DNA from: Parcubacteria group bacterium
GTDB taxonomy: Bacteria > Patescibacteriota > Minisyncoccia > Moranbacterales > UBA2206
Assembly (NCBI GenBank): GCA_041664225.1
Contig: JBAYLE010000001.1
Span: forward strand, 4,939 to 68,938
Direction: 5' to 3'
DNA length: 64,000 bases
Part shown: positions 27,600 through 50,375 of the stretch, piece after piece
Layout of the letters: each line of letters starts with the position of its first letter
Numbering within the stretch: the first letter of the stretch is position 1
Position numbers and translations under genes: made by a program
Notes under the pieces: generated by a model
What the model was told of the DNA's origin: nothing
What the model saw: the letters and a program-made list of their open reading frames with translations, nothing else
The model's database searches: none

Positions 27600-30449
27600 A
27601 TGGAAAACTACGATCCGAAGCTTATTGAGCCAAAATGGCAGGAATTTTGGCTTAAAGAAGGCATTTATAAAAACTACGAGAAATCTAAGAAGTTCTATGC
27701 TCTGGATATGTTTCCGTATATTTCCGGTTCGGGTATTCATGTAGGGCATCCAAAAGGGTATATTGCGACCGATGTGGTGTCGAGGTTCAAGATGCTTCAA
27801 GGATACAGCGTGCTTCATCCGATGGGCTGGGACGCTTTTGGGCTGCCAGCAGAAAATTATGCCATTAAAAATAAGATCAATCCCAACATTTTTGTGAAGG
27901 AAAATATTATCAGGTTCAAAAAACAGCTGGAGATGTTTGGCTTCACTTACGATTGGGACAGGGAATTCAGCACAACTGATCCGAATTACTATAAATGGAC
28001 GCAATGGATATTTCTGAAATTATTCGAGAAAGGTTTGGCGTATGAGTCCAATGAGCCGGTTAACTGGTGTTCGAGTTGCAAAACTGTATTGGCCAATGAA
28101 GATTTGGAGAAAGGATTGTGCGAGCGCTGCGGCACGCAAGTGGTGCAGAAAAAAATGAGGCAATGGGTTCTTAAAATGACTGATTACGCCGATCGCCTGC
28201 TTTATGATCTGGATACGGAGGGTCTCGATTGGGAGGAACAAATTCTTGAGCAACAAAGAAATTGGATCGGAAGAAGCGAAGGAGCGGAAATAGAATTCCA
28301 AATTTCAAATTCAGAATTTAAAATTAAAGTTTATACAACCAGAGTCGATACTATTTTCGGCTGCACTTATTGCGTTATCGCGCCGGAACACGAAACAGTC
28401 CAAAAGCTGAAAAATAAAATAGAAAACTGGGATGAGGTTGAAAAATATTTAATCGAATCACAAAACAAAACAGAATTGGAAAGAATGGAATTGAAAGACA
28501 AGACGGGGGTCGAACTAAAGGGAATCAAGCTTATTAATCCATTCAACGGAGAATCAGTTCCATTGTTTGCTGCGGATTATGTTTTAGCGCACTATGGAAC
28601 CGGCGCGGTGATGGCTGTGCCGGCGCACGATGAAAGAGATTTTGAATTCGCGAAGAAATATAATTTACCGATTAAAAATGTTATCGGGCCATGTTTTTGT
28701 CAGCAAACTGAACCAGGCAAAATCAAAGAGAAAGAGCCATTTGAAGAGAGAGATGCTGTGCTAGCGATTGTTAAACATCAGGATAAAGATGAATATTTGG
28801 GGCTAAAATGGAAACAAGTGGATTGGAAAACTTTCATAACTGGTGGTCCAGAAGAAGGTCAAACTGCCGAAGAAGCAGCCAGGATGGAGGTTCTTGAGGA
28901 AACCGGATATAAGAACTTGAAATTGATCAAAGAATTGCCGATGGTGCATAGTAAATTTTATCATGTGCCGAAGAAATTAAATCGGCTTGCTCATTTTCGT
29001 GTTTTTTACTTTGAGTTGGAAAATGACGAGCATCAGGAAATTTCAGAAATTGATAAGAAAAGGCATGAAGTCGTTTGGGTGACGAAGGAAAAAGTGGAAA
29101 CTTTTTTAACGCCGGAATCACAAATATATACCTGGCAGACATTACTGGGAAAAGAAAAACCGTATGTTGACGATGGTGTCTTAGCAAATTCTGACAAATA
29201 TTCCAGCATGACCTCCGAGGAAGCACGTGAAAAAATGACCGAGTGGCTGGAAAAAGAAAAAATTGGCGAGAAAAAAATAAATTACAAAATGCGCGACTGG
29301 GTTTTTTCGCGCCAACGTTATTGGGGTGAGCCGATTCCGATCGTGCATTGCGAAAAATGCGGAGCGGTTGCGATTTCGGAAAAAGAATTGCCGTTAAAAT
29401 TGCCCGAAGTCGAAAATTATGAGCCGACCGGAACCGAAGAGGGTCCATTGGCCAACATAACTGAGTGGGTAAATACGACTTGCCCAAAATGCGGCGGACC
29501 GGGGAAGCGTGAAACAAACACGATGCCGCAATGGGCGGGATCCAGCTGGTATTATCTTCGCTATATTGATCCAAAAAATAATGAAGCCCTGGTTGAAAAA
29601 AATAAAGAAAAAGATTGGATGCCAGTGGATCTTTATGTCGGTGGTGCAGAACACGCCACTCGTCATTTGCTGTATGCCAGATTTTGGCACAAATTTCTGT
29701 ATGATATCAAAGTTGTTTCTACGAAGGAGCCCTTCAAAAAACTGGTTCACGTCGGACTGGTTGATGGAGAAGACGGCAGAAAAATGAGTAAGCGCTGGGG
29801 GAACGTAGTAAATCCTGATGATGTTATAAATGAATTTGGGGTTGATTCGTTGCGTCTTTATGAAATGTTTATGGGGCCTTTCAGTCAGAATATTGCCTGG
29901 AGCACGGATGGCGTAAAAGGAGTGAGAAGGTTTTTGGAAAAAGTTTGGAAGTTACAAAAAAAAGTTATTGATCAAGTTGTAGAAAATAAAAAACTTGAAT
30001 CACTGTTGCATAAAACTATCAAGAAAGTCACGGAGGATATAAAAAATTTTCGTTTCAATACTGCCATTAGCGCGATGATGATTCTGGTAAATGAATTAGA
30101 AAAAGGGAAAAATATTTTAAGCACCAATTACAAATTGCTAATCACTATTTTGAGTCCTTTTGCTCCACACATTGCTGAAGAACTTTGGGAAAAGTTGGGG
30201 CATAAAGATAGCATATTTTTGCAATCTTGGCCAGAGTATGATCCGGAACTAATCAGAGATGAAAAAATAACGTTGGTCTTGCAAATAAATGGCAAAGTGC
30301 GTGATTCAATCGAAGTGGATGCTGGGATTTCAGAAAAGGAGGCAAAAGAGCTGGCGATGCAAAGCGAAAAAATAAAAACTTGGGTTTCAGGCAAAGAAAT
30401 CAAAAAAGTTATTTTTGTCAAAGGCAAACTTATAAATATTGTCATCTAA
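27600..30449 (+). CDS. leuS: Leucyl-tRNA synthetase carrying a Nudix-like domain insertion after the CP1 editing domain
   Basis: HVGHPKGY, editing-domain motifs (GTGAVMAVPAHDERDFEFAKKYNLPI), and KMSKRWGN. The roughly 160-aa insert contains AVLAIV...GGPEEGQTAEEAARMEVLEETGY. Confidence 0.9.
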   Translation: MENYDPKLIEPKWQEFWLKEGIYKNYEKSKKFYALDMFPYISGSGIHVGHPKGYIATDVVSRFKMLQGYSVLHPMGWDAFGLPAENYAIKNKINPNIFVKENIIRFKKQLEMFGFTYDWDREFSTTDPNYYKWTQWIFLKLFEKGLAYESNEPVNWCSSCKTVLANEDLEKGLCERCGTQVVQKKMRQWVLKMTDYADRLLYDLDTEGLDWEEQILEQQRNWIGRSEGAEIEFQISNSEFKIKVYTTRVDTIFGCTYCVIAPEHETVQKLKNKIENWDEVEKYLIESQNKTELERMELKDKTGVELKGIKLINPFNGESVPLFAADYVLAHYGTGAVMAVPAHDERDFEFAKKYNLPIKNVIGPCFCQQTEPGKIKEKEPFEERDAVLAIVKHQDKDEYLGLKWKQVDWKTFITGGPEEGQTAEEAARMEVLEETGYKNLKLIKELPMVHSKFYHVPKKLNRLAHFRVFYFELENDEHQEISEIDKKRHEVVWVTKEKVETFLTPESQIYTWQTLLGKEKPYVDDGVLANSDKYSSMTSEEAREKMTEWLEKEKIGEKKINYKMRDWVFSRQRYWGEPIPIVHCEKCGAVAISEKELPLKLPEVENYEPTGTEEGPLANITEWVNTTCPKCGGPGKRETNTMPQWAGSSWYYLRYIDPKNNEALVEKNKEKDWMPVDLYVGGAEHATRHLLYARFWHKFLYDIKVVSTKEPFKKLVHVGLVDGEDGRKMSKRWGNVVNPDDVINEFGVDSLRLYEMFMGPFSQNIAWSTDGVKGVRRFLEKVWKLQKKVIDQVVENKKLESLLHKTIKKVTEDIKNFRFNTAISAMMILVNELEKGKNILSTNYKLLITILSPFAPHIAEELWEKLGHKDSIFLQSWPEYDPELIRDEKITLVLQINGKVRDSIEVDAGISEKEAKELAMQSEKIKTWVSGKEIKKVIFVKGKLINIVI
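28692..29175 (+). other. Nudix-like domain inserted within leuS
   Basis: Sits between the conserved IKNVIG and KINYKMRDWVFSRQRYWG blocks, which are about 55 aa apart in E. coli LeuRS. Confidence 0.6.
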
Positions 30450-46461: not shown

Positions 46462-46489
46462 TTGGCGGATTTTTCAATTGTGGTATAAT
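46462..46489 (+). promoter_or_regulatory. Promoter with an extended -10 (TTGGCG-16-TGgTATAAT) for the nrdR-nrdD operon
   Basis: ttggcggatttttcaattgtggtataat. Confidence 0.5.
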
Positions 46490-46578
46490 GACATTAATAT
46501 ATACAATATGTAGTATAAAAAGTTTATCCCGGCACAAATTTTTCTTAAGTTCTGGGATAATATTTTTGAGAAAAATCC

Positions 46579-47031
46579 ATGAATTGTCCTTTTTGCAATA
46601 ATAGCGAAACCAAAGTAGTTGATTCGCGAGATACCAATGAAGGCAAAATTACACGCCGAAGACGCGAATGTATCGAGTGCAATGCCCGATTCAGCACCTA
46701 TGAAGAAGTAGAACTTTTACGTTTGGCAGTTTTGAAGAAGAACGGCGAAAAAGTTGATTATGATAAAAGCAAGGTAGAGACCGGAGTCAGGCGAGCCTTA
46801 GTCAAACGACCGGTGACGCAGGAGCGGGTGGCTAAACTCTTGGGAGACATTGAGTATGAGATCCATGCCCTTGAAAAACCGGAAGTAACGACGCGGGAAA
46901 TCGGCAAGATTGTTCTCAAAAAGCTGAAAGAACTGGACGAGGTGGCGTATGTGAGGTTTGCCAGTGTGTACAAATCATTCGGAAGCGTAGAAAGTTTCAA
47001 AAAAGAACTGGATATGCTGGAAGATAAATAA
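46579..47031 (+). CDS. nrdR: Transcriptional repressor NrdR
   Basis: Zn ribbon MNCPFCNNSETKVVDSR...CIECNARF followed by an ATP-cone. Confidence 0.9.
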   Translation: MNCPFCNNSETKVVDSRDTNEGKITRRRRECIECNARFSTYEEVELLRLAVLKKNGEKVDYDKSKVETGVRRALVKRPVTQERVAKLLGDIEYEIHALEKPEVTTREIGKIVLKKLKELDEVAYVRFASVYKSFGSVESFKKELDMLEDK

Positions 47032-47090: not shown

Positions 47091-49286
47091 ATGAATGGAA
47101 AGATTATGGCGAAAACAAAAACGAAAAAAAGGGGAGTAAAAAAAGAAACACAAGAAAAGAAAAGCGTGAAAAAGGTTTCCGCAAAAAGGGAAACAAAAAA
47201 AACAGAGGAAAACAGGGTTACTAAGGTTATCAAGCGAAGCGGAAACGTGGTCAATCTTGATCCGGCGAAAATTGTTAAAGCAGTGAGCAAGGCCTTTTTA
47301 GCAACCGGCGAAGGCAGTCTCAAGGATGCGGAGAAAGTTTCCCAGAAAGTCGTTCAGCTTTTGAATAAAAATTACAAAAAGGGCTATCTTCCGGAAATTG
47401 AAGAAATCCAGGACCTCGTGGAAAGAGTTTTAATGATCTTGGATTTTGAAGAAACCGCCAAATCCTATATCTTGTACCGTGAACAGCATCGAAAAATTCG
47501 TGAAACAGAGGAGTCGCTGAAAGAAGCCGTTGACTTGGTGGATAAATATATCCAGGAAATTGACTGGAAGGTCAAAGAGAACGCCAATATGGCATATTCA
47601 CTGCAAGGACTTAACAATTATATTTCTTCCATCGTCAGCTCGAAGTATTGGATGAATCGCGTTTATACGAAAGAGATCCGCGAGGCGCACGAAGGCGGTG
47701 ATTTTCATATCCATGATTTGCAATTGGTAGCGGCTTATTGTTGCGGTTGGGATCTGCAAGATCTTATCCGCCGCGGATTTACCGGCGTTCCGGGCAAAGT
47801 CGCTTGCAAACCAGCCAAACATCTGGGATCAATTTTGGGGCAGATGGTTAATTTTATTTATACGCTTCAGGGAGAAGTGGCTGGCGCGCAGGCTTTCTCC
47901 AATTTCGATACCCTGCTGGCGCCATTTGTCCGGTGCGATAATTTGACTTACGAAAAAGTAAAACAAGAAATTCAGTCATTTGTTTTTAACATGAATGTTT
48001 CCACGCGCGTCGGATTTCAAACCCCTTTTTCCAACATCACCATGGACATCACCGCACCCAAAACTTTGGCAAAAGAAGCGGTGATTATCGGCGGCGTGCC
48101 GCAAAAAGAAACTTACGCGGACTTTCAGGAAGAAATGAATATGATCAATCGGGCTTTTGCCGAAGTTATGACGGAAGGCGACGCCAGCGGAAGAATTTTT
48201 ACTTTTCCGATTCCGACTTATAATATCGACAAAAACTTCAATTGGGCGGATGAAAAATTCAATGCTATCTGGGAGATGACGGCTAAATATGGCATTCCGT
48301 ATTTTGCCAACTTTATCAATTCCGATATGGATCCGGACGACGCGCGCAGTATGTGCTGTCGGCTGCGTCTGGATAATCGCGAGCTGCATAAGCGGGGCGG
48401 TGGACTCTTTGGCGCAAATCCCCTGACTGGATCAATTGGAGTCGTTACGATCAATATGCCGCGATTGGGATACGTAGCTAAGAATAAAAAAGATTTTTTT
48501 CAGCGCCTGGATAAGCTTATGGATATCGCCAAGGAAAGCCTGGAGGTTAAAAGAAAAATGGTGGAAAATATGACAGAGAAAGGTCTTTATCCATACACCA
48601 AAGTTTATTTAGATTCCATTAAGATGCGGCGCGGAGAATATTGGGCCAATCATTTTTCTACGATAGGCTTGATCGGGATGAATGAAGCTTTAATAAATTT
48701 GCTCGGAAAAGATATTTCTACCAAAGAAGGGCAAAAGTTCGCGGAAGAGGTGTTGGTGCATATGCGGGATCGAATGGTTAAATATCAAAAAGAGATGGGC
48801 AATATGTACAATCTTGAAGCTACGCCAGGAGAAGGGATTACACATCGTTTGGCGGGTATTGATAGAAAGAAATTTTCAGACATGGTTTTTGCCAACGACA
48901 AGGCGGTCAAAGCGGAAGGCGCAATCCCATATTACACAAATTCTTCCCAATTGCCGGTTTATTTTACGGATGATATTTTTGGTGCCCTTGATCTGCAGGA
49001 AAAATTGCAGACTAAATATACCGGAGGAACCGTGTTGCATGGATTTCTGGGAGAGCGCTTGTGGGATATCGAAACTACAAAGAATCTGGTCAGAAAAATC
49101 GCTGAAAATTATTCGTTGCCCTATTTTACTCTGACACCCACTTTCAGTATTTGCCCGGTACACGGTTATTTAAAAGGGGAGCACACGACTTGTCCCAAGT
49201 GCGTAATCGAACAAAAAACTGAAGTTTTTTTGAAGGTAGGAGAGGAAGAGCTTAGGGAAAAACAAGAAAAAATAATAAAAAAATAA
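47091..49286 (+). CDS. nrdD: Anaerobic (class III) ribonucleoside-triphosphate reductase with a degenerate C-terminal glycyl-radical tail
   Basis: ATP-cone, NrdD core, and the first Zn cluster FSICPVHGYLKGEHTTCPKC. After that the tail (KTEVFLKVGEEEL) lacks the RVxGY motif. The N-terminal extension is Lys-rich. Confidence 0.8.
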   Translation: MNGKIMAKTKTKKRGVKKETQEKKSVKKVSAKRETKKTEENRVTKVIKRSGNVVNLDPAKIVKAVSKAFLATGEGSLKDAEKVSQKVVQLLNKNYKKGYLPEIEEIQDLVERVLMILDFEETAKSYILYREQHRKIRETEESLKEAVDLVDKYIQEIDWKVKENANMAYSLQGLNNYISSIVSSKYWMNRVYTKEIREAHEGGDFHIHDLQLVAAYCCGWDLQDLIRRGFTGVPGKVACKPAKHLGSILGQMVNFIYTLQGEVAGAQAFSNFDTLLAPFVRCDNLTYEKVKQEIQSFVFNMNVSTRVGFQTPFSNITMDITAPKTLAKEAVIIGGVPQKETYADFQEEMNMINRAFAEVMTEGDASGRIFTFPIPTYNIDKNFNWADEKFNAIWEMTAKYGIPYFANFINSDMDPDDARSMCCRLRLDNRELHKRGGGLFGANPLTGSIGVVTINMPRLGYVAKNKKDFFQRLDKLMDIAKESLEVKRKMVENMTEKGLYPYTKVYLDSIKMRRGEYWANHFSTIGLIGMNEALINLLGKDISTKEGQKFAEEVLVHMRDRMVKYQKEMGNMYNLEATPGEGITHRLAGIDRKKFSDMVFANDKAVKAEGAIPYYTNSSQLPVYFTDDIFGALDLQEKLQTKYTGGTVLHGFLGERLWDIETTKNLVRKIAENYSLPYFTLTPTFSICPVHGYLKGEHTTCPKCVIEQKTEVFLKVGEEELREKQEKIIKK

Positions 49287-49310
49287 AAATAATAATTAAC
49301 CAAAAAAACT

Positions 49311-49610
49311 ATGAAAAAGCTTGTGTGCCACGATTGCGGCAAAACATTGGAAAAGGGGAGCGAATATGTCCTGTATGAAGTGGTATCAGACAAATTTATC
49401 AAATGTAAAGAGTGCTATAAAAAAGACCCGGTGTTGAAAAATTTCAAAAAAGCCGAAGTTTATTCCCGCGTAGTTGGTTATATACGCCCTGTGGAGCAAT
49501 GGAATGGCGCCAAGCAGGCCGAATTCGGCGACAGAAAAGAATATTGTGTGGGTTGTGCTCCCAAGAAGAAGACGATGAAAAAGATAGCCAAAAGGAAAGG
49601 AGAAAAATAG
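49311..49610 (+). CDS. Stand-alone Zn-ribbon plus glycyl-radical domain protein matching the NrdD C-terminus
   Basis: CHDC...CKEC Zn ribbon followed by AEVYSRVVGYIRPVEQWNGAKQAEFGDRKEY, which is the NrdD glycyl-radical signature. Confidence 0.75.
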   Translation: MKKLVCHDCGKTLEKGSEYVLYEVVSDKFIKCKECYKKDPVLKNFKKAEVYSRVVGYIRPVEQWNGAKQAEFGDRKEYCVGCAPKKKTMKKIAKRKGEK

Positions 49611-49682
49611 GGCATTTATAAAAAGATAGCGGGGCGACTTTGATTTTTAAAATCAGGTCGCCCTGATTATTAAAAATTAGTT

Positions 49683-50375
49683 ATGATACTCGGAGGATAT
49701 CAAAAGTTAACTTTAATAGACTATCCCGGTAAGATAGCAGCCACAGTTTTTACTGTCGGTTGCAGTTTTCGCTGTCCGTTTTGCCATAATCCGGAATTGG
49801 TCAATCTGCGTTTGGCGCATGATGAGAAATCAGAAAAAGAATTTTTTGAATTTCTGAAAAAGCGCAAGGGAAAAATCGAAGGAGTCTGCATTACCGGCGG
49901 CGAACCGACTATACAGCCGGACCTGATCGATTTTATCAAAAAAATAAGAAAGTTGGGATTTTTGGTGAAACTAGATACTAATGGCAGTCGTCCGGATGTT
50001 TTGAAAAAACTGTTGGACGCAAAGCTTCTTGATTTTGTGGCGATGGATATAAAAAACAGTCTGAAAAGATATAACAAAACAATCGGGAATAAGGTCGACA
50101 CGGACCGGATCAAGTTGAGTGTTGATCTGATCAAAAATAGCCGGTTGCCATATGAGTTCAGAACCACAGTTGTTCCCGGAATTCACACCGAAAAAGATTT
50201 CGAAGAAATTACCAAATGGATCAAGGGTGCCAAAAGTTATTATCTCCAGGAGTATCGCGAAATAAAAATCTTAGATCCTAAATTAAAGAAGAAAACTAAA
50301 GGCAAAAAAATAGATCTGGAAAAAATTAAGAAAAAAATAGAAAATAATTTTGATAAAATGGGAATACGCAGATGA
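49683..50375 (+). CDS. nrdG: Class III RNR activating enzyme (radical SAM)
   Basis: CSFRCPFCHNPEL. Confidence 0.85.
   Translation: MILGGYQKLTLIDYPGKIAATVFTVGCSFRCPFCHNPELVNLRLAHDEKSEKEFFEFLKKRKGKIEGVCITGGEPTIQPDLIDFIKKIRKLGFLVKLDTNGSRPDVLKKLLDAKLLDFVAMDIKNSLKRYNKTIGNKVDTDRIKLSVDLIKNSRLPYEFRTTVVPGIHTEKDFEEITKWIKGAKSYYLQEYREIKILDPKLKKKTKGKKIDLEKIKKKIENNFDKMGIRR

What the first reader, a model, noticed from the sequence alone, without database searches (positions are those of the whole stretch)
49180..49610. Class III RNR with a degenerate glycyl-radical tail plus a separate 99-aa Zn-ribbon/glycyl-radical protein (a possible in-trans radical domain)
The large NrdD ORF keeps the first Cys cluster (FSICPVHGYLKGEHTTCPKC). 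Where canonical NrdD proteins carry EVYSRVxGYxRPVxxWNxGKQ, it reads KTEVFLKVGEEELREKQEKIIKK and stops, so there is no Gly-Tyr radical motif. Twenty-five nt downstream, a separate ORF encodes CHDC...CKEC (Zn ribbon) followed by AEVYSRVVGYIRPVEQWNGAKQAEFGDRKEY. This is a textbook NrdD glycyl-radical signature. The large ORF's tail looks like a decayed duplicate (TEVFLKVGEE versus AEVYSRVVGY). This resembles the GrcA/YfiD spare-part concept known for pyruvate formate-lyase, here as the native arrangement for an anaerobic RNR. nrdG, the activase, follows.
Basis: partly seen in the sequence, partly recalled or inferred. Interest (0 to 1): 0.6.

Follow-up and report, generated by a model that had tools for sequence, protein, structure and literature searches.

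The report
Anaerobic RNR with separate radical protein
In this tiny-genome (Parcubacteria) bacterium, the oxygen-sensitive enzyme that makes DNA building blocks has lost the tail that normally carries its catalytic radical. A small neighbouring gene encodes that tail as a separate protein, which is genomic evidence that "spare-part" radical proteins, so far known only for pyruvate formate-lyase, also exist for ribonucleotide reductase.

Summary
The nrdD gene (47091/47106-49286) encodes a complete class III RNR barrel, ATP-cone and Zn site, but it stops where the glycyl-radical loop should be. After 24 nt containing three in-frame stops, a 99-aa ORF (49311-49610) encodes a 4-Cys Zn ribbon and a perfect NrdD glycyl-radical domain. 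nrdG follows.

Three other assemblies carry the identical sequence, so this is not an artefact. Of the 120 closest NrdD clusters, 43 lack the radical loop. Every such locus examined keeps the small ORF and nrdG. Both genes are under strong purifying selection.

Most relatives keep an intact NrdD and also carry the small gene. The small protein is therefore an extra, GrcA-like copy, and in the window's lineage it has become the only radical domain.

The family is large and unannotated:
- at least 150 clusters at 50% identity;
- unlinked copies next to rubrerythrin, Fur, Rrf2 or hemerythrin genes;
- phage-borne copies, including the published ANMV-1 virus.

A June 2026 review states that spare-part proteins are known only for formate lyases.

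Best reading (inferred, untested): NrdG activates the small protein, which then docks into NrdD in trans. Interest is high.

The parts
46579..47031 (+). nrdR, the Zn-ribbon + ATP-cone repressor of nrd genes and first gene of the conserved nrdR-nrdD-small-nrdG cluster
   Evidence: TIGR00244 at 169.6 bits (cutoff 124.65) and Pfam Zn_ribbon_NrdR + ATP-cone. The same gene order is seen in L001-L009 and L090-L093.
47091..49286 (+). nrdD, the class III RNR catalytic subunit without a glycyl-radical domain. It is 731 aa from the first ATG; public gene calls start at 47106, giving 726 aa. It has a Lys-rich N-terminus, an ATP-cone (aa 45-134), the barrel, and the finger-loop motif SMCCRLRLD.
   Evidence: NF006126 at 1032 bits, covering positions 2-661 of 684. 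Pfam NRDD covers positions 1-536 of 562. The best PDB relatives are P. copri 8p23 and T. maritima 4coi. The barrel is as conserved in GRD-less lineages as in intact ones.
49152..49202 (+). Zn-binding site retained in the large subunit: C688-P-V-H691 ... C701-P-K-C704 (CxxH...CxxC)
   Evidence: The residues are invariant in 82 aligned relatives, both GRD-less and intact. The same CxxHG...CPxC pattern is seen in all 120 closest homologs.
49203..49283 (+). Decayed remnant of the cis glycyl-radical domain (VIEQKTEVFLKVGEEELREKQEKIIKK). It replaces ...KTEVYSRVVGYIRPVxQWNKGKQAEFxDRKEF of intact relatives.
   Evidence: Comparison with intact tails in L004, L007 and P0127 among others. 43 of 120 homolog clusters have similarly truncated tails (...TETFLKVV*...GEFMVVG*...STVYLKVVMAD*).
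49287..49310 (+). 24-nt A-rich spacer with two further in-frame TAA codons. There is no open frame linking the two ORFs.
   Evidence: Read directly from the sequence. Spacers in relatives run from 4 to 136 nt, in different frames.
49311..49610 (+). Stand-alone NrdD-type glycyl-radical protein (99 aa). It has a 4-Cys Zn ribbon (C6, C9, C32, C35), a KDPVLKNF linker, and a GRD hairpin with the predicted radical Gly56 (codon 49476-49478). A C79xxC82 motif and a Lys-rich tail follow.
   Evidence: Pfam NRDD positions 510-562 of 562, E=1e-11. 586 small homolog clusters. C6, H7, C9, C32, C35, Y51, S52, R53, G56, R59, P60, W64 and other residues are invariant. The profile aligns aa 47-78 to the T. maritima NrdD C-terminus (KVDEYMRIVGYLVPV...). 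The AF2 model puts G56 at the tip of a beta-hairpin (E49-52/E57-60), but confidence is only modest.
49625..49671 (+). Strong RNA hairpin between the small ORF and nrdG. It may be a partial terminator or attenuator that sets the nrdD + small : nrdG expression ratio; this is inference.
   Evidence: MFE is -24.4 kcal/mol with z = -3.95 against shuffles. The simple terminator scan did not call it because its loop is longer than 8 nt.
49683..50375 (+). nrdG, the radical-SAM activase (C27xxxC31xxC34)
   Evidence: TIGR02495 NrdG2 at 227.5 bits (cutoff 131.15), with Radical_SAM and Fer4_12 domains.

Best explanation
The window encodes a two-polypeptide class III ribonucleotide reductase.

The 726/731-aa NrdD provides the ATP-cone, the catalytic barrel with its Cys finger loop, and a Zn site. 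Its own C-terminal glycyl-radical domain (GRD) has decayed and is truncated at the position of the radical glycine. The 99-aa product of the next gene is a free-standing Zn-ribbon + NrdD-type GRD.

Proposed mechanism (inferred):
1. NrdG, using SAM and a reduced [4Fe-4S] cluster, abstracts the H atom from Gly56 of the small protein.
2. The activated small protein inserts its GRD hairpin into the NrdD barrel, as a cis GRD does.
3. The Gly radical generates the finger-loop thiyl radical for NTP reduction.
4. If oxygen cleaves the radical site, only the 11-kDa protein is lost and replaced.

Evolutionary reading: the small protein belongs to an old family of NrdD-type autonomous glycyl-radical proteins that normally sit beside an intact NrdD. 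They appear to act as spare parts, the class III RNR counterpart of GrcA/YfiD. Having the spare part made the cis GRD dispensable. Several CPR lineages, including this one, then lost it, leaving an NrdD that resembles the oxygen-cleaved enzyme.

Shown here: the gene anatomy, family membership, conservation, selection, and distribution in genomes and phages.
Inferred: activation by NrdG, docking, and catalytic competence.
For: 1. Anatomy: the large ORF covers NRDD model positions 1-536 of 562 and the small ORF covers 510-562. Only the small ORF has the SRVVGY...RPVxQWNxxK motif.

2. Not an artefact: the sequence is identical in 4 assemblies. Three in-frame stops separate the ORFs.

3. Recurrence: 43 of the 120 closest NrdD cluster representatives (77-100% identity) lack the Gly motif. 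One of them, P0180, looks like a frameshift. Their tails end at or near the Gly position. All keep the Zn site and finger loop.

4. Obligate pairing:
- Every GRD-less locus has the small ORF and nrdG.
- That includes 4 of 4 loci picked blind through the large protein.

5. Selection:
- Between GRD-less lineages, synonymous sites are saturated (pS 0.66-0.88).
- pN is 0.04-0.22 for the large protein and 0.17-0.29 for the small one.
- Barrel conservation is equal in GRD-less and intact lineages: mean major-residue frequency 0.908 versus 0.902, and 385 versus 379 near-invariant columns of 560.

6. Loss is probably polyphyletic. The tail types differ and fall in separate clades: the window and L016 groups, L017, and L019/L026.

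7. Relatives with an intact NrdD carry the small gene as well (L004, L007, L012-15, L018, L020-23, L039-40).
- The cis and trans GRDs of one genome share lineage-specific residues (76-94% aa identity).
- They often differ at synonymous sites, as expected if both must fit the same barrel and activase.

8. Independent gene fissions exist that put only the GRD on a separate ORF.
- Five Thermotogae and Bipolaricaulota MAGs have AAGGAGG plus a GTG or TTG start inside the nrdD 3' end.
- One Dojkabacteria locus (L089) is also split.
- A trans GRD has therefore evolved more than once in class III RNRs.

9. Spare-part context:
- Unlinked copies lie next to rubrerythrin (L037, L043, L046), hemerythrin-HHE (L047), Fur-family (L046, L032) and Rrf2 (L043) genes.
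- About 30 IMG/VR contigs and the published ANMV-1 virus carry the small gene, with no NrdD or NrdG match near it. This parallels T4 Y06I for PFL.

10. Precedent: the GrcA/YfiD mechanism for PFL is established biochemically (PMC8683613).
Against: - There is no biochemical, expression or structural evidence.
- Both single-chain AF2 models are of low confidence (pLDDT 64 and 66).
- Only 64 kb of the genome is visible. No other RNR is present in it, but a class I/II RNR or a second nrdD elsewhere cannot be excluded.
- The large subunit keeps its own Zn ribbon, so it is unclear where the small protein's second Zn ribbon would sit.
- The neighbour-joining tree behind the count of independent losses has no support values. 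L010 and L011 have nearly identical large proteins but different small-protein N-termini, which suggests recombination that blurs the history.
- The oxidative-stress neighbourhoods are seen in only a handful of loci.
Confidence: 0.75

Rival explanations
1. The GRD-less nrdD is a dead or decaying gene. The organism makes or scavenges dNTPs another way, and the small ORF is a leftover or serves something else.
For: CPR bacteria have reduced metabolism and often depend on hosts. Only 64 kb of the genome could be inspected. The C-terminal truncation removes a residue essential to every characterised class III RNR.
Against: - Synonymous sites are saturated while amino-acid change stays low in both genes across GRD-less lineages.
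- The barrel, finger loop and Zn site are as conserved as in intact relatives.
- 43 of 120 homolog clusters share the state.
- nrdR, the small ORF and nrdG are retained in every case.
- In six GTDB MAGs with a GRD-less NrdD, no second GRD-bearing locus appeared among the retained hits. A two-locus MAG (L033 + L050) was detected by the same scan. This evidence is weak.
Confidence: 0.08
2. The small protein is not a radical donor for NrdD. It would instead be a regulator or decoy of NrdG, a radical-storage or chaperone protein, or a partner of a different enzyme.
For: In most relatives NrdD has its own GRD, so the small protein is not strictly needed there. It has features the cis GRD lacks: a 4-Cys ribbon with a long insert, and a C-terminal Cys pair in 85 of 120 family members against 2 of 77 intact NrdD tails. 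Unlinked and phage-borne copies exist.
Against: - In GRD-less lineages, NrdD would have no radical source at all, yet it stays under strong constraint.
- The GRD core of the small protein tracks the cis GRD of the same genome.
- Simple fission-type splits show that a trans GRD works for this enzyme family.
- No other glycyl-radical enzyme barrel is present in the operons.
Confidence: 0.1
3. The two ORFs are one gene, split by an assembly or sequencing indel, or rejoined by programmed recoding (readthrough, frameshift or splicing).
For: The junction is A-rich and homopolymer-rich. The two ORFs are in the same frame.
Against: - Three in-frame TAA codons lie between them, and no single frameshift opens a path.
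- The DNA is identical in four assemblies.
- Relatives have spacers of 4-136 nt in various frames.
- A fusion would carry two Zn ribbons, or two GRDs in two-GRD relatives.
- The large ORF's tail is itself a diverged GRD remnant.
- 586 small homolog clusters each have their own start codon.
Confidence: 0.02

Closest known systems
GrcA/YfiD of E. coli and Y06I of phage T4 (autonomous glycyl radical cofactors, spare parts for pyruvate formate-lyase)
   Same: - A small stand-alone protein made essentially of a glycyl-radical domain.
- Expected to be activated by the cognate activase and to replace the enzyme's own GRD in trans.
- Both unlinked and phage-encoded versions exist.
- The truncated large subunit here resembles the O2-cleaved enzyme that GrcA rescues, including a retained strand just before the Gly.
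   Different: - It derives from the NrdD C-terminus (Pfam PF13597), not from PFL (PF01228). Only NrdD families were listed among its hits, with no Gly_radical or GrcA family.
- It carries a 4-Cys Zn ribbon instead of GrcA's disordered N-terminus.
- In CPR it sits inside the nrd operon.
- In this lineage the enzyme's own GRD is genetically lost, so the small protein would be an obligate subunit, which is not known for PFL.
- Its function is untested.
Canonical class III RNR NrdD/NrdG (T4, E. coli, T. maritima, P. copri)
   Same: The ATP-cone, the barrel, the finger-loop cysteines, a Zn site before the GRD, an NrdG2-type activase and NrdR control. The GRD motif EVYSRVVGYxRPVxQWNxGK is the same as in intact relatives.
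   Different: In all characterised enzymes the GRD is the C-terminus of the same chain. Here it is on a separate 99-aa protein with its own Zn ribbon.
Split class II RNR NrdJa/NrdJb (e.g. Pseudomonas aeruginosa)
   Same: An RNR catalytic chain divided into two adjacent genes, with the C-terminal Zn-finger-containing module on the second polypeptide (PMC9669993).
   Different: - Class II (adenosylcobalamin) chemistry.
- NrdJb carries reducing cysteines and an IscU-like domain, not the radical site.
- It is a simple fission, whereas here a paralogous module replaced a decayed one.
Class I RNR alpha/beta
   Same: The radical is generated and stored on a separate, smaller protein and used by the catalytic subunit.
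   Different: Class I uses a ferritin-like beta subunit with a metallo or tyrosyl cofactor and long-range proton-coupled electron transfer. There is no homology, and here the radical residue would sit directly in the active site.

Membership tests
Class III RNR catalytic subunit (NrdD) | Sequence membership: NRDD barrel models above the curated cutoffs | tested here: met
   NF006126 at 1032 bits (cutoff 548), TIGR02487 at 526 bits (cutoff 326), and PF13597 at E=2e-183.
Class III RNR catalytic subunit (NrdD) | Finger-loop catalytic cysteine(s) in the barrel | tested here: met
   The SMCCRLRLDNRE motif has C417 and C418 (726-aa numbering) invariant in 82 relatives. The assignment to the finger loop rests on homology to T. 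maritima-type NrdD (PMC9669993), not on a structure determined here.
Class III RNR catalytic subunit (NrdD) | Zn-binding site preceding the GRD | tested here: met
   The CxxH...CxxC pattern (C688, H691, C701, C704) is invariant in the subfamily. A His replaces the second Cys of the T4-type site. Metal binding was not tested.
Class III RNR catalytic subunit (NrdD) | C-terminal glycyl-radical motif (RVxGY followed by RPVxxWNxGK) on the same chain | tested here: not met
   The tail reads ...KTEVFLKVGEEELREKQEKIIKK*. The model match stops at position 536 of 562 (Pfam) or 661 of 684 (NF006126).
NrdG activase (radical SAM, NrdG2 type) | An equivalog model above cutoff, plus the CxxxCxxC cluster motif | tested here: met
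   TIGR02495 at 227.5 bits (cutoff 131.15). The sequence contains GCSFRCPFCHN.
GrcA/YfiD autonomous glycyl radical cofactor family (PFL-type; Pfam Gly_radical PF01228) | Homology to the PFL C-terminal GRD or the GrcA models | tested here: not met
   The small ORF hits only PF13597 (the NrdD C-terminus) in Pfam. In NCBIfam it hits only NrdD equivalogs below cutoff. No Gly_radical or GrcA family was listed at E<=0.01.
GrcA/YfiD autonomous glycyl radical cofactor family (functional class: spare-part GRD) | A small free-standing protein consisting of a GRD with the radical Gly motif | tested here: met
   The 99-aa protein has an invariant SRVVG56Y motif. There are 586 stand-alone homolog clusters of 79-113 aa. 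The top 150 representatives at 50% identity are all 42-159 aa.
GrcA/YfiD autonomous glycyl radical cofactor family (functional class: spare-part GRD) | Radical installation by the cognate activase and restoration of activity to a GRD-less or O2-cleaved enzyme | not testable with these tools
   Only indirect support is available: obligate co-occurrence with GRD-less NrdD and nrdG, and purifying selection.
Stand-alone NrdD-type GRD family (defined here) | A 4-Cys Zn ribbon (CHDCG...KCxxC), a (K)DPxLxNF-like linker, and an EVYSRVVGY(I/L)RPVxQWNxGK core | tested here: met
   The window protein has all three features. In the set, 119 of 120 have the ribbon + GRD and 118 of 120 have the linker. Among distant representatives, 113 of 149 have the ribbon + GRD.

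The most novel reading that the evidence does not exclude
Class III ribonucleotide reductases have an unrecognised, widespread accessory: a diffusible, replaceable radical-cofactor protein (Zn ribbon + GRD). It would act as a spare part in many anaerobes, and as the sole, obligate radical subunit in several CPR lineages, giving a natural two-subunit class III RNR. Phages and archaeal viruses would also carry it to keep the host's anaerobic RNR radical-loaded during infection or oxygen exposure. This would be the first spare-part system for any glycyl-radical enzyme other than PFL.
Probability: 0.55. Interest if true: 0.9.

Novelty: new variant of a known kind. Interest (0 to 1): 0.82.

Why it matters
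The glycyl-radical enzyme field regards spare-part proteins as unique to formate lyases. It lists their existence for other enzymes as an open question (Biochemistry 2026, PMC13450708; JBC 2021, PMC8683613). This locus, and the family it belongs to, make that question directly testable for an essential enzyme.

The GRD-less NrdDs are natural equivalents of the oxygen-cleaved enzyme. They come with a dedicated 11-kDa partner and an activase in one operon, which is a ready-made three-protein system for EPR, activity and cryo-EM work.

If confirmed, the finding would have several consequences:
- Class III RNR can be a two-component enzyme, like class I.
- It would explain how oxygen-fragile RNRs persist in organisms at oxic-anoxic interfaces.
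- It would reveal a new phage auxiliary gene. Short "NrdD" calls, such as the one in the ANMV-1 virus, are currently read as evidence of a complete RNR.
- Hundreds of mis-annotated "anaerobic ribonucleoside-triphosphate reductase" entries of about 90 aa could be corrected.

Tried and rejected
- **Assembly error or recoding:** rejected. There are three in-frame stops, four identical assemblies, and variable spacers in relatives.
- **Recent tandem duplicate of the neighbour's tail:** rejected. The small ORF has a different Zn ribbon (4 Cys with a 22-residue insert, against CxxH with 9 residues) and a family-specific linker.
- **Modelling the large + small complex as a linked chain:** An attempt to align the fused chain with unpaired rows gave an unusable MAFFT alignment.
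- **AF2 of the small protein alone:** mean pLDDT 63.9. It shows a Zn-ribbon hairpin and a GRD hairpin, but confidence is modest.
- **Foldseek of that model against the PDB:** only generic Zn-ribbon proteins, with no hit at E<0.001.
- **AF2 of the large subunit on a shallow alignment:** mean pLDDT 65.9. The finger loop, Zn site and tail are all below 50, so nothing can be concluded.
- **phmmer of the small ORF against the PDB:** only spurious C2H2 zinc-finger hits. A profile search found the T. maritima NrdD C-terminus weakly (E=0.14).
- **Simple terminator scan:** no + strand site in the operon. Folding did reveal a hairpin after the small ORF.
- **Residues distinguishing GRD-less from intact barrels:** only four conservative, incompletely sorted positions, so no clear adaptation.
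- **PHROGs and NCBIfam:** neither has a dedicated family for the small protein.
- **Literature searches** for a split NrdD, a spare part for RNR, or NrdD in Patescibacteria found no description.
Full report
**What is there**

On the + strand the window carries a compact operon:
- nrdR (46579-47031);
- nrdD (47091/47106-49286);
- a 99-aa ORF (49311-49610);
- nrdG (49683-50375).

The large ORF is an unambiguous class III RNR catalytic subunit. It scores 1032 bits on NF006126 and E=2e-183 on Pfam NRDD, and it has an ATP-cone. The match stops at Pfam model position 536 of 562. After the Zn site (CPVHG...CPKC) the protein reads VIEQKTEVFLKVGEEELREKQEKIIKK and ends.

The small ORF matches model positions 510-562 (E=1e-11). 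It has:
- a 4-Cys Zn ribbon (CHDCG...KCKEC);
- the sequence AEVYSRVVGYIRPVEQWNGAKQAEFGDRKEY, the NrdD glycyl-radical domain (GRD);
- a CxxC motif and a Lys-rich tail.

The spacer is 24 nt rather than 25, and it contains two more in-frame TAA codons.

**Not an artefact and not recoding**

- The junction and its surroundings are 100% identical in three other assemblies from different accessions.
- Three in-frame stops separate the ORFs, and no single frameshift connects them.
- In relatives the spacer is 4-136 nt and the frames differ.
- The small ORF has 586 stand-alone homolog clusters of 79-113 aa.

**The key comparative result**

In many relatives the large NrdD is intact, ending ...KTEVYSRVVGYIRPVxQWNKGKQAEFxDRKEF, and the small gene is still present between nrdD and nrdG. 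These relatives include L004, L007, L012-15, L018, L020-23 and L039-40. The small protein is therefore an additional GRD, not a fragment of the neighbouring gene.

It also differs from the neighbour's C-terminus:

| Feature | Small protein | Neighbouring NrdD C-terminus |
|---|---|---|
| Zn site | 4 Cys, with a ~22-residue insert | CxxH...CxxC |
| Linker before the GRD | family-specific (K)DPxLxNF | short |

Among the 120 closest NrdD cluster representatives (77-100% identity), 43 lack the glycyl motif. One of these looks like a frameshift. All keep the Zn site and the SMCCRLRLD finger loop. Their tails are remnants of the strand before the glycine, cut at or just after the Gly position...TEVFLKVGEE.....TETFLKVV*...GEFMVVG*...STVYLKVVMAD*.

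The window's tail is therefore the decayed original cis GRD. The truncated proteins look like a genetic version of the oxygen-cleaved enzyme.

**Are the GRD-less genes functional, and is the small gene required?**

- *Pairing.* Every GRD-less locus retrieved has the small ORF and nrdG. Those loci were found through the GRD, so four GRD-less large proteins were also picked blind. All four are followed by a small NRDD-domain ORF and nrdG.
- *Selection.* Between GRD-less lineages, synonymous sites are saturated (pS 0.66-0.88). Non-synonymous change is low: pN is 0.04-0.22 for the large protein and 0.17-0.29 for the small one.
- *Barrel conservation.* The 560 barrel columns are as conserved in 46 GRD-less sequences as in 84 intact ones, with mean major-residue frequency 0.908 versus 0.902.
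- *Independent losses.* An unsupported neighbour-joining tree and the distinct tail types suggest at least three independent losses: the window/L016 groups, L017, and L019/L026. There may be more.
- *Cis and trans copies.* Within two-GRD genomes the two GRDs share lineage-specific residues. One pair is nearly identical in DNA (L004, 96 of 102 nt), which points to recent gene conversion. Others have diverged at synonymous sites, which points to shared functional constraint.

**Breadth of the family**

A profile of the small proteins was searched against 1.84 billion cluster representatives. It gave 457 hits at E<=1e-10. The best 150 are all 42-159 aa long and very diverse.

In GTDB species representatives (classified), the 80 retained loci include:
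- 11 with an intact NrdD plus the small gene;
- 6 with a GRD-less NrdD plus the small gene;
- 21 orphan small genes with no nrdD or nrdG within about 4 kb. These are mostly Desulfobacterota, with some CPR.

One MAG has both an orphan copy (L033) and a canonical nrdDG locus (L050).

Several orphans sit in oxidative-stress-type neighbourhoods:
- rubrerythrin directly downstream in L037, L043 and L046;
- a hemerythrin-HHE protein downstream in L047;
- Fur-family regulators upstream in L046 and L032;
- an Rrf2 regulator upstream in L043.

About 30 IMG/VR contigs carry the small gene alone, among phage-like genes: a tail lysozyme, an SbcC-like ATPase, a metallophosphatase and an endolysin-like peptidase.

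The published 38-kb ANMV-1 archaeal virus has a 144-aa CDS of this family. It is annotated "anaerobic ribonucleoside triphosphate reductase", and the paper took it as evidence for an oxygen-sensitive RNR. No dedicated model exists in Pfam, NCBIfam or PHROGs.

**Independent support that a trans GRD is viable**

In five Thermotogae and Bipolaricaulota MAGs, nrdD ends after the Zn ribbon. A separate ~60-aa ORF carrying only the GRD starts inside the 3' end of nrdD. It has a perfect AAGGAGG Shine-Dalgarno sequence and a GTG or TTG start. A Dojkabacteria locus (L089) has a 45-aa GRD-only ORF 20 nt after a GRD-less nrdD. These are simple fissions, a different route to the same architecture.

**Mechanism (inferred)**

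By analogy with GrcA/YfiD and PFL (PMC8683613) and with canonical NrdD:
1. NrdG would install the radical on Gly56 of the free small protein.
2. The GRD hairpin would then occupy the barrel next to the finger-loop cysteines.
3. After oxygen damage, only the small protein needs replacing.

The profile aligns residues 47-78 with the C-terminus of T. maritima NrdD (KVDEYMRIVGYLVPV...). AF2 places G56 at the tip of a beta-hairpin followed by a helix, at modest confidence.

A strong hairpin after the small ORF (-24.4 kcal/mol, z=-3.95) could lower nrdG expression relative to nrdD and the small gene.

Three points remain unexplained:
- the role of the Zn ribbon retained in the large subunit;
- the position of the second Zn ribbon;
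- the C-terminal Cys pair typical of the small proteins (85 of 120, against 2 of 77 intact NrdD tails).

**Comparison with what is known**

Functionally the closest system is GrcA/YfiD and T4 Y06I. By homology, however, the small protein belongs to the NrdD C-terminus, not to the PFL-type Gly_radical/GrcA family. The membership test was not met.

Split class II RNRs (NrdJa/NrdJb) are a precedent for two-gene RNRs, but their second chain carries no radical.

[quoted passage not shown] It adds that whether others exist "is yet to be determined". The 2021 JBC paper says the same. Searches for a split NrdD, a spare part for RNR, or NrdD in CPR found nothing else.

**Limits**

- Nothing here is biochemical.
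- Complex modelling was not possible.
- Both single-chain models are weak.
- Only 64 kb of the genome is visible. No other RNR lies among its large ORFs.
- The count of independent losses rests on an unsupported tree.

**Verdict**

The finding is a new, NrdD-derived variant of the spare-part principle that has become an obligate radical subunit in this lineage. Interest is high.

Noticed in passing
L052 (3868-3975), L054, L063 (987-1079), L065 (3868-3960), L077 (2980-3072): In Thermotogae and Bipolaricaulota MAGs, nrdD ends after the Zn ribbon (CPKCDEE...). A separate ~60-65-aa GRD-only ORF (M-STYREDEQGNLxLEDGTVIP...AEVYSRVVGYLRPVEQWN...) starts in the +1 frame inside the nrdD 3' end. A perfect AAGGAGG Shine-Dalgarno sequence and a GTG or TTG start precede it. 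This is a conserved true gene fission, different in type from the window's arrangement.
   Followed up: partly
L089 969-4150; L079 804-3167: Dojkabacteria: a 1007-aa NrdD without a GRD is followed after 20 nt by a 45-aa ORF that is only the GRD, with no Zn ribbon. A Saccharibacteria locus (L079) looks similarly split, but it contains masked bases.
   Followed up: no
L037 3866-4865, L043 3488-4773, L046 3597-4852, L047 3977-4781, L032 156-762: Orphan small GRD genes are flanked by rubrerythrin, hemerythrin-HHE, Fur-family or Rrf2 regulator genes. This looks like an oxidative-stress regulon context. It was seen in only a handful of loci.
   Followed up: partly
L094-L122 (IMG/VR); L174 3857-4291 (ANMV-1 virus, KP703175.1, CDS AJP62049.1): Viral contigs carry the stand-alone Zn-ribbon + GRD gene, with no NrdD or NrdG match within 3.5 kb (IMG/VR loci), beside phage structural and recombination genes. 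In the published ANMV-1 genome, the 144-aa CDS is annotated as nrdD and was read as evidence for a complete oxygen-sensitive RNR.
   Followed up: partly
window 49545-49607; P0001-P0120: Most small GRD proteins end in a Cys pair (ACC, CGC or CxxC): 85 of 120 have at least 2 Cys after the GRD, against 2 of 77 intact NrdD tails. The window's subclade adds a Lys-rich tail, and the large subunit has a Lys-rich N-terminal extension. The function of these features is unknown.
   Followed up: partly
window 49625-49671: A strong RNA hairpin (-24.4 kcal/mol, z=-3.95) lies between the small ORF and nrdG. It may be an attenuator or partial terminator.
   Followed up: partly
window 46462-46520: A promoter-like site (TTGGCG, 16 nt, TATAAT with an upstream TG) lies upstream of nrdR. 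An AT-rich partly palindromic stretch (ATATATACAATATGTAGTATA) follows and could be an NrdR box. It was not tested.
   Followed up: no
window 27600-30449: The leucyl-tRNA synthetase ORF (949 aa) has a NUDIX-domain match (aa 406-503, E=3e-11) just after the editing domain, between the synthetase core and the anticodon-binding domain.
   Followed up: no
L010 vs L011: Two GTDB MAGs have nearly identical GRD-less NrdDs (93% aa identity). Their small proteins share an identical GRD core but have clearly different Zn-ribbon halves and tails (71% identity overall). This hints at recombination within the small gene.
   Followed up: no
P0125; P0180: P0125 is an intact NrdD whose tail ends ...VADSACGC, like a small protein, which may reflect gene conversion from the small gene. 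P0180 (close to L004) has a scrambled GRD (..YSRVVGTSAVQQWNKGKPNLMIGKNL) that looks like a frameshift pair or a sequencing error.
   Followed up: no
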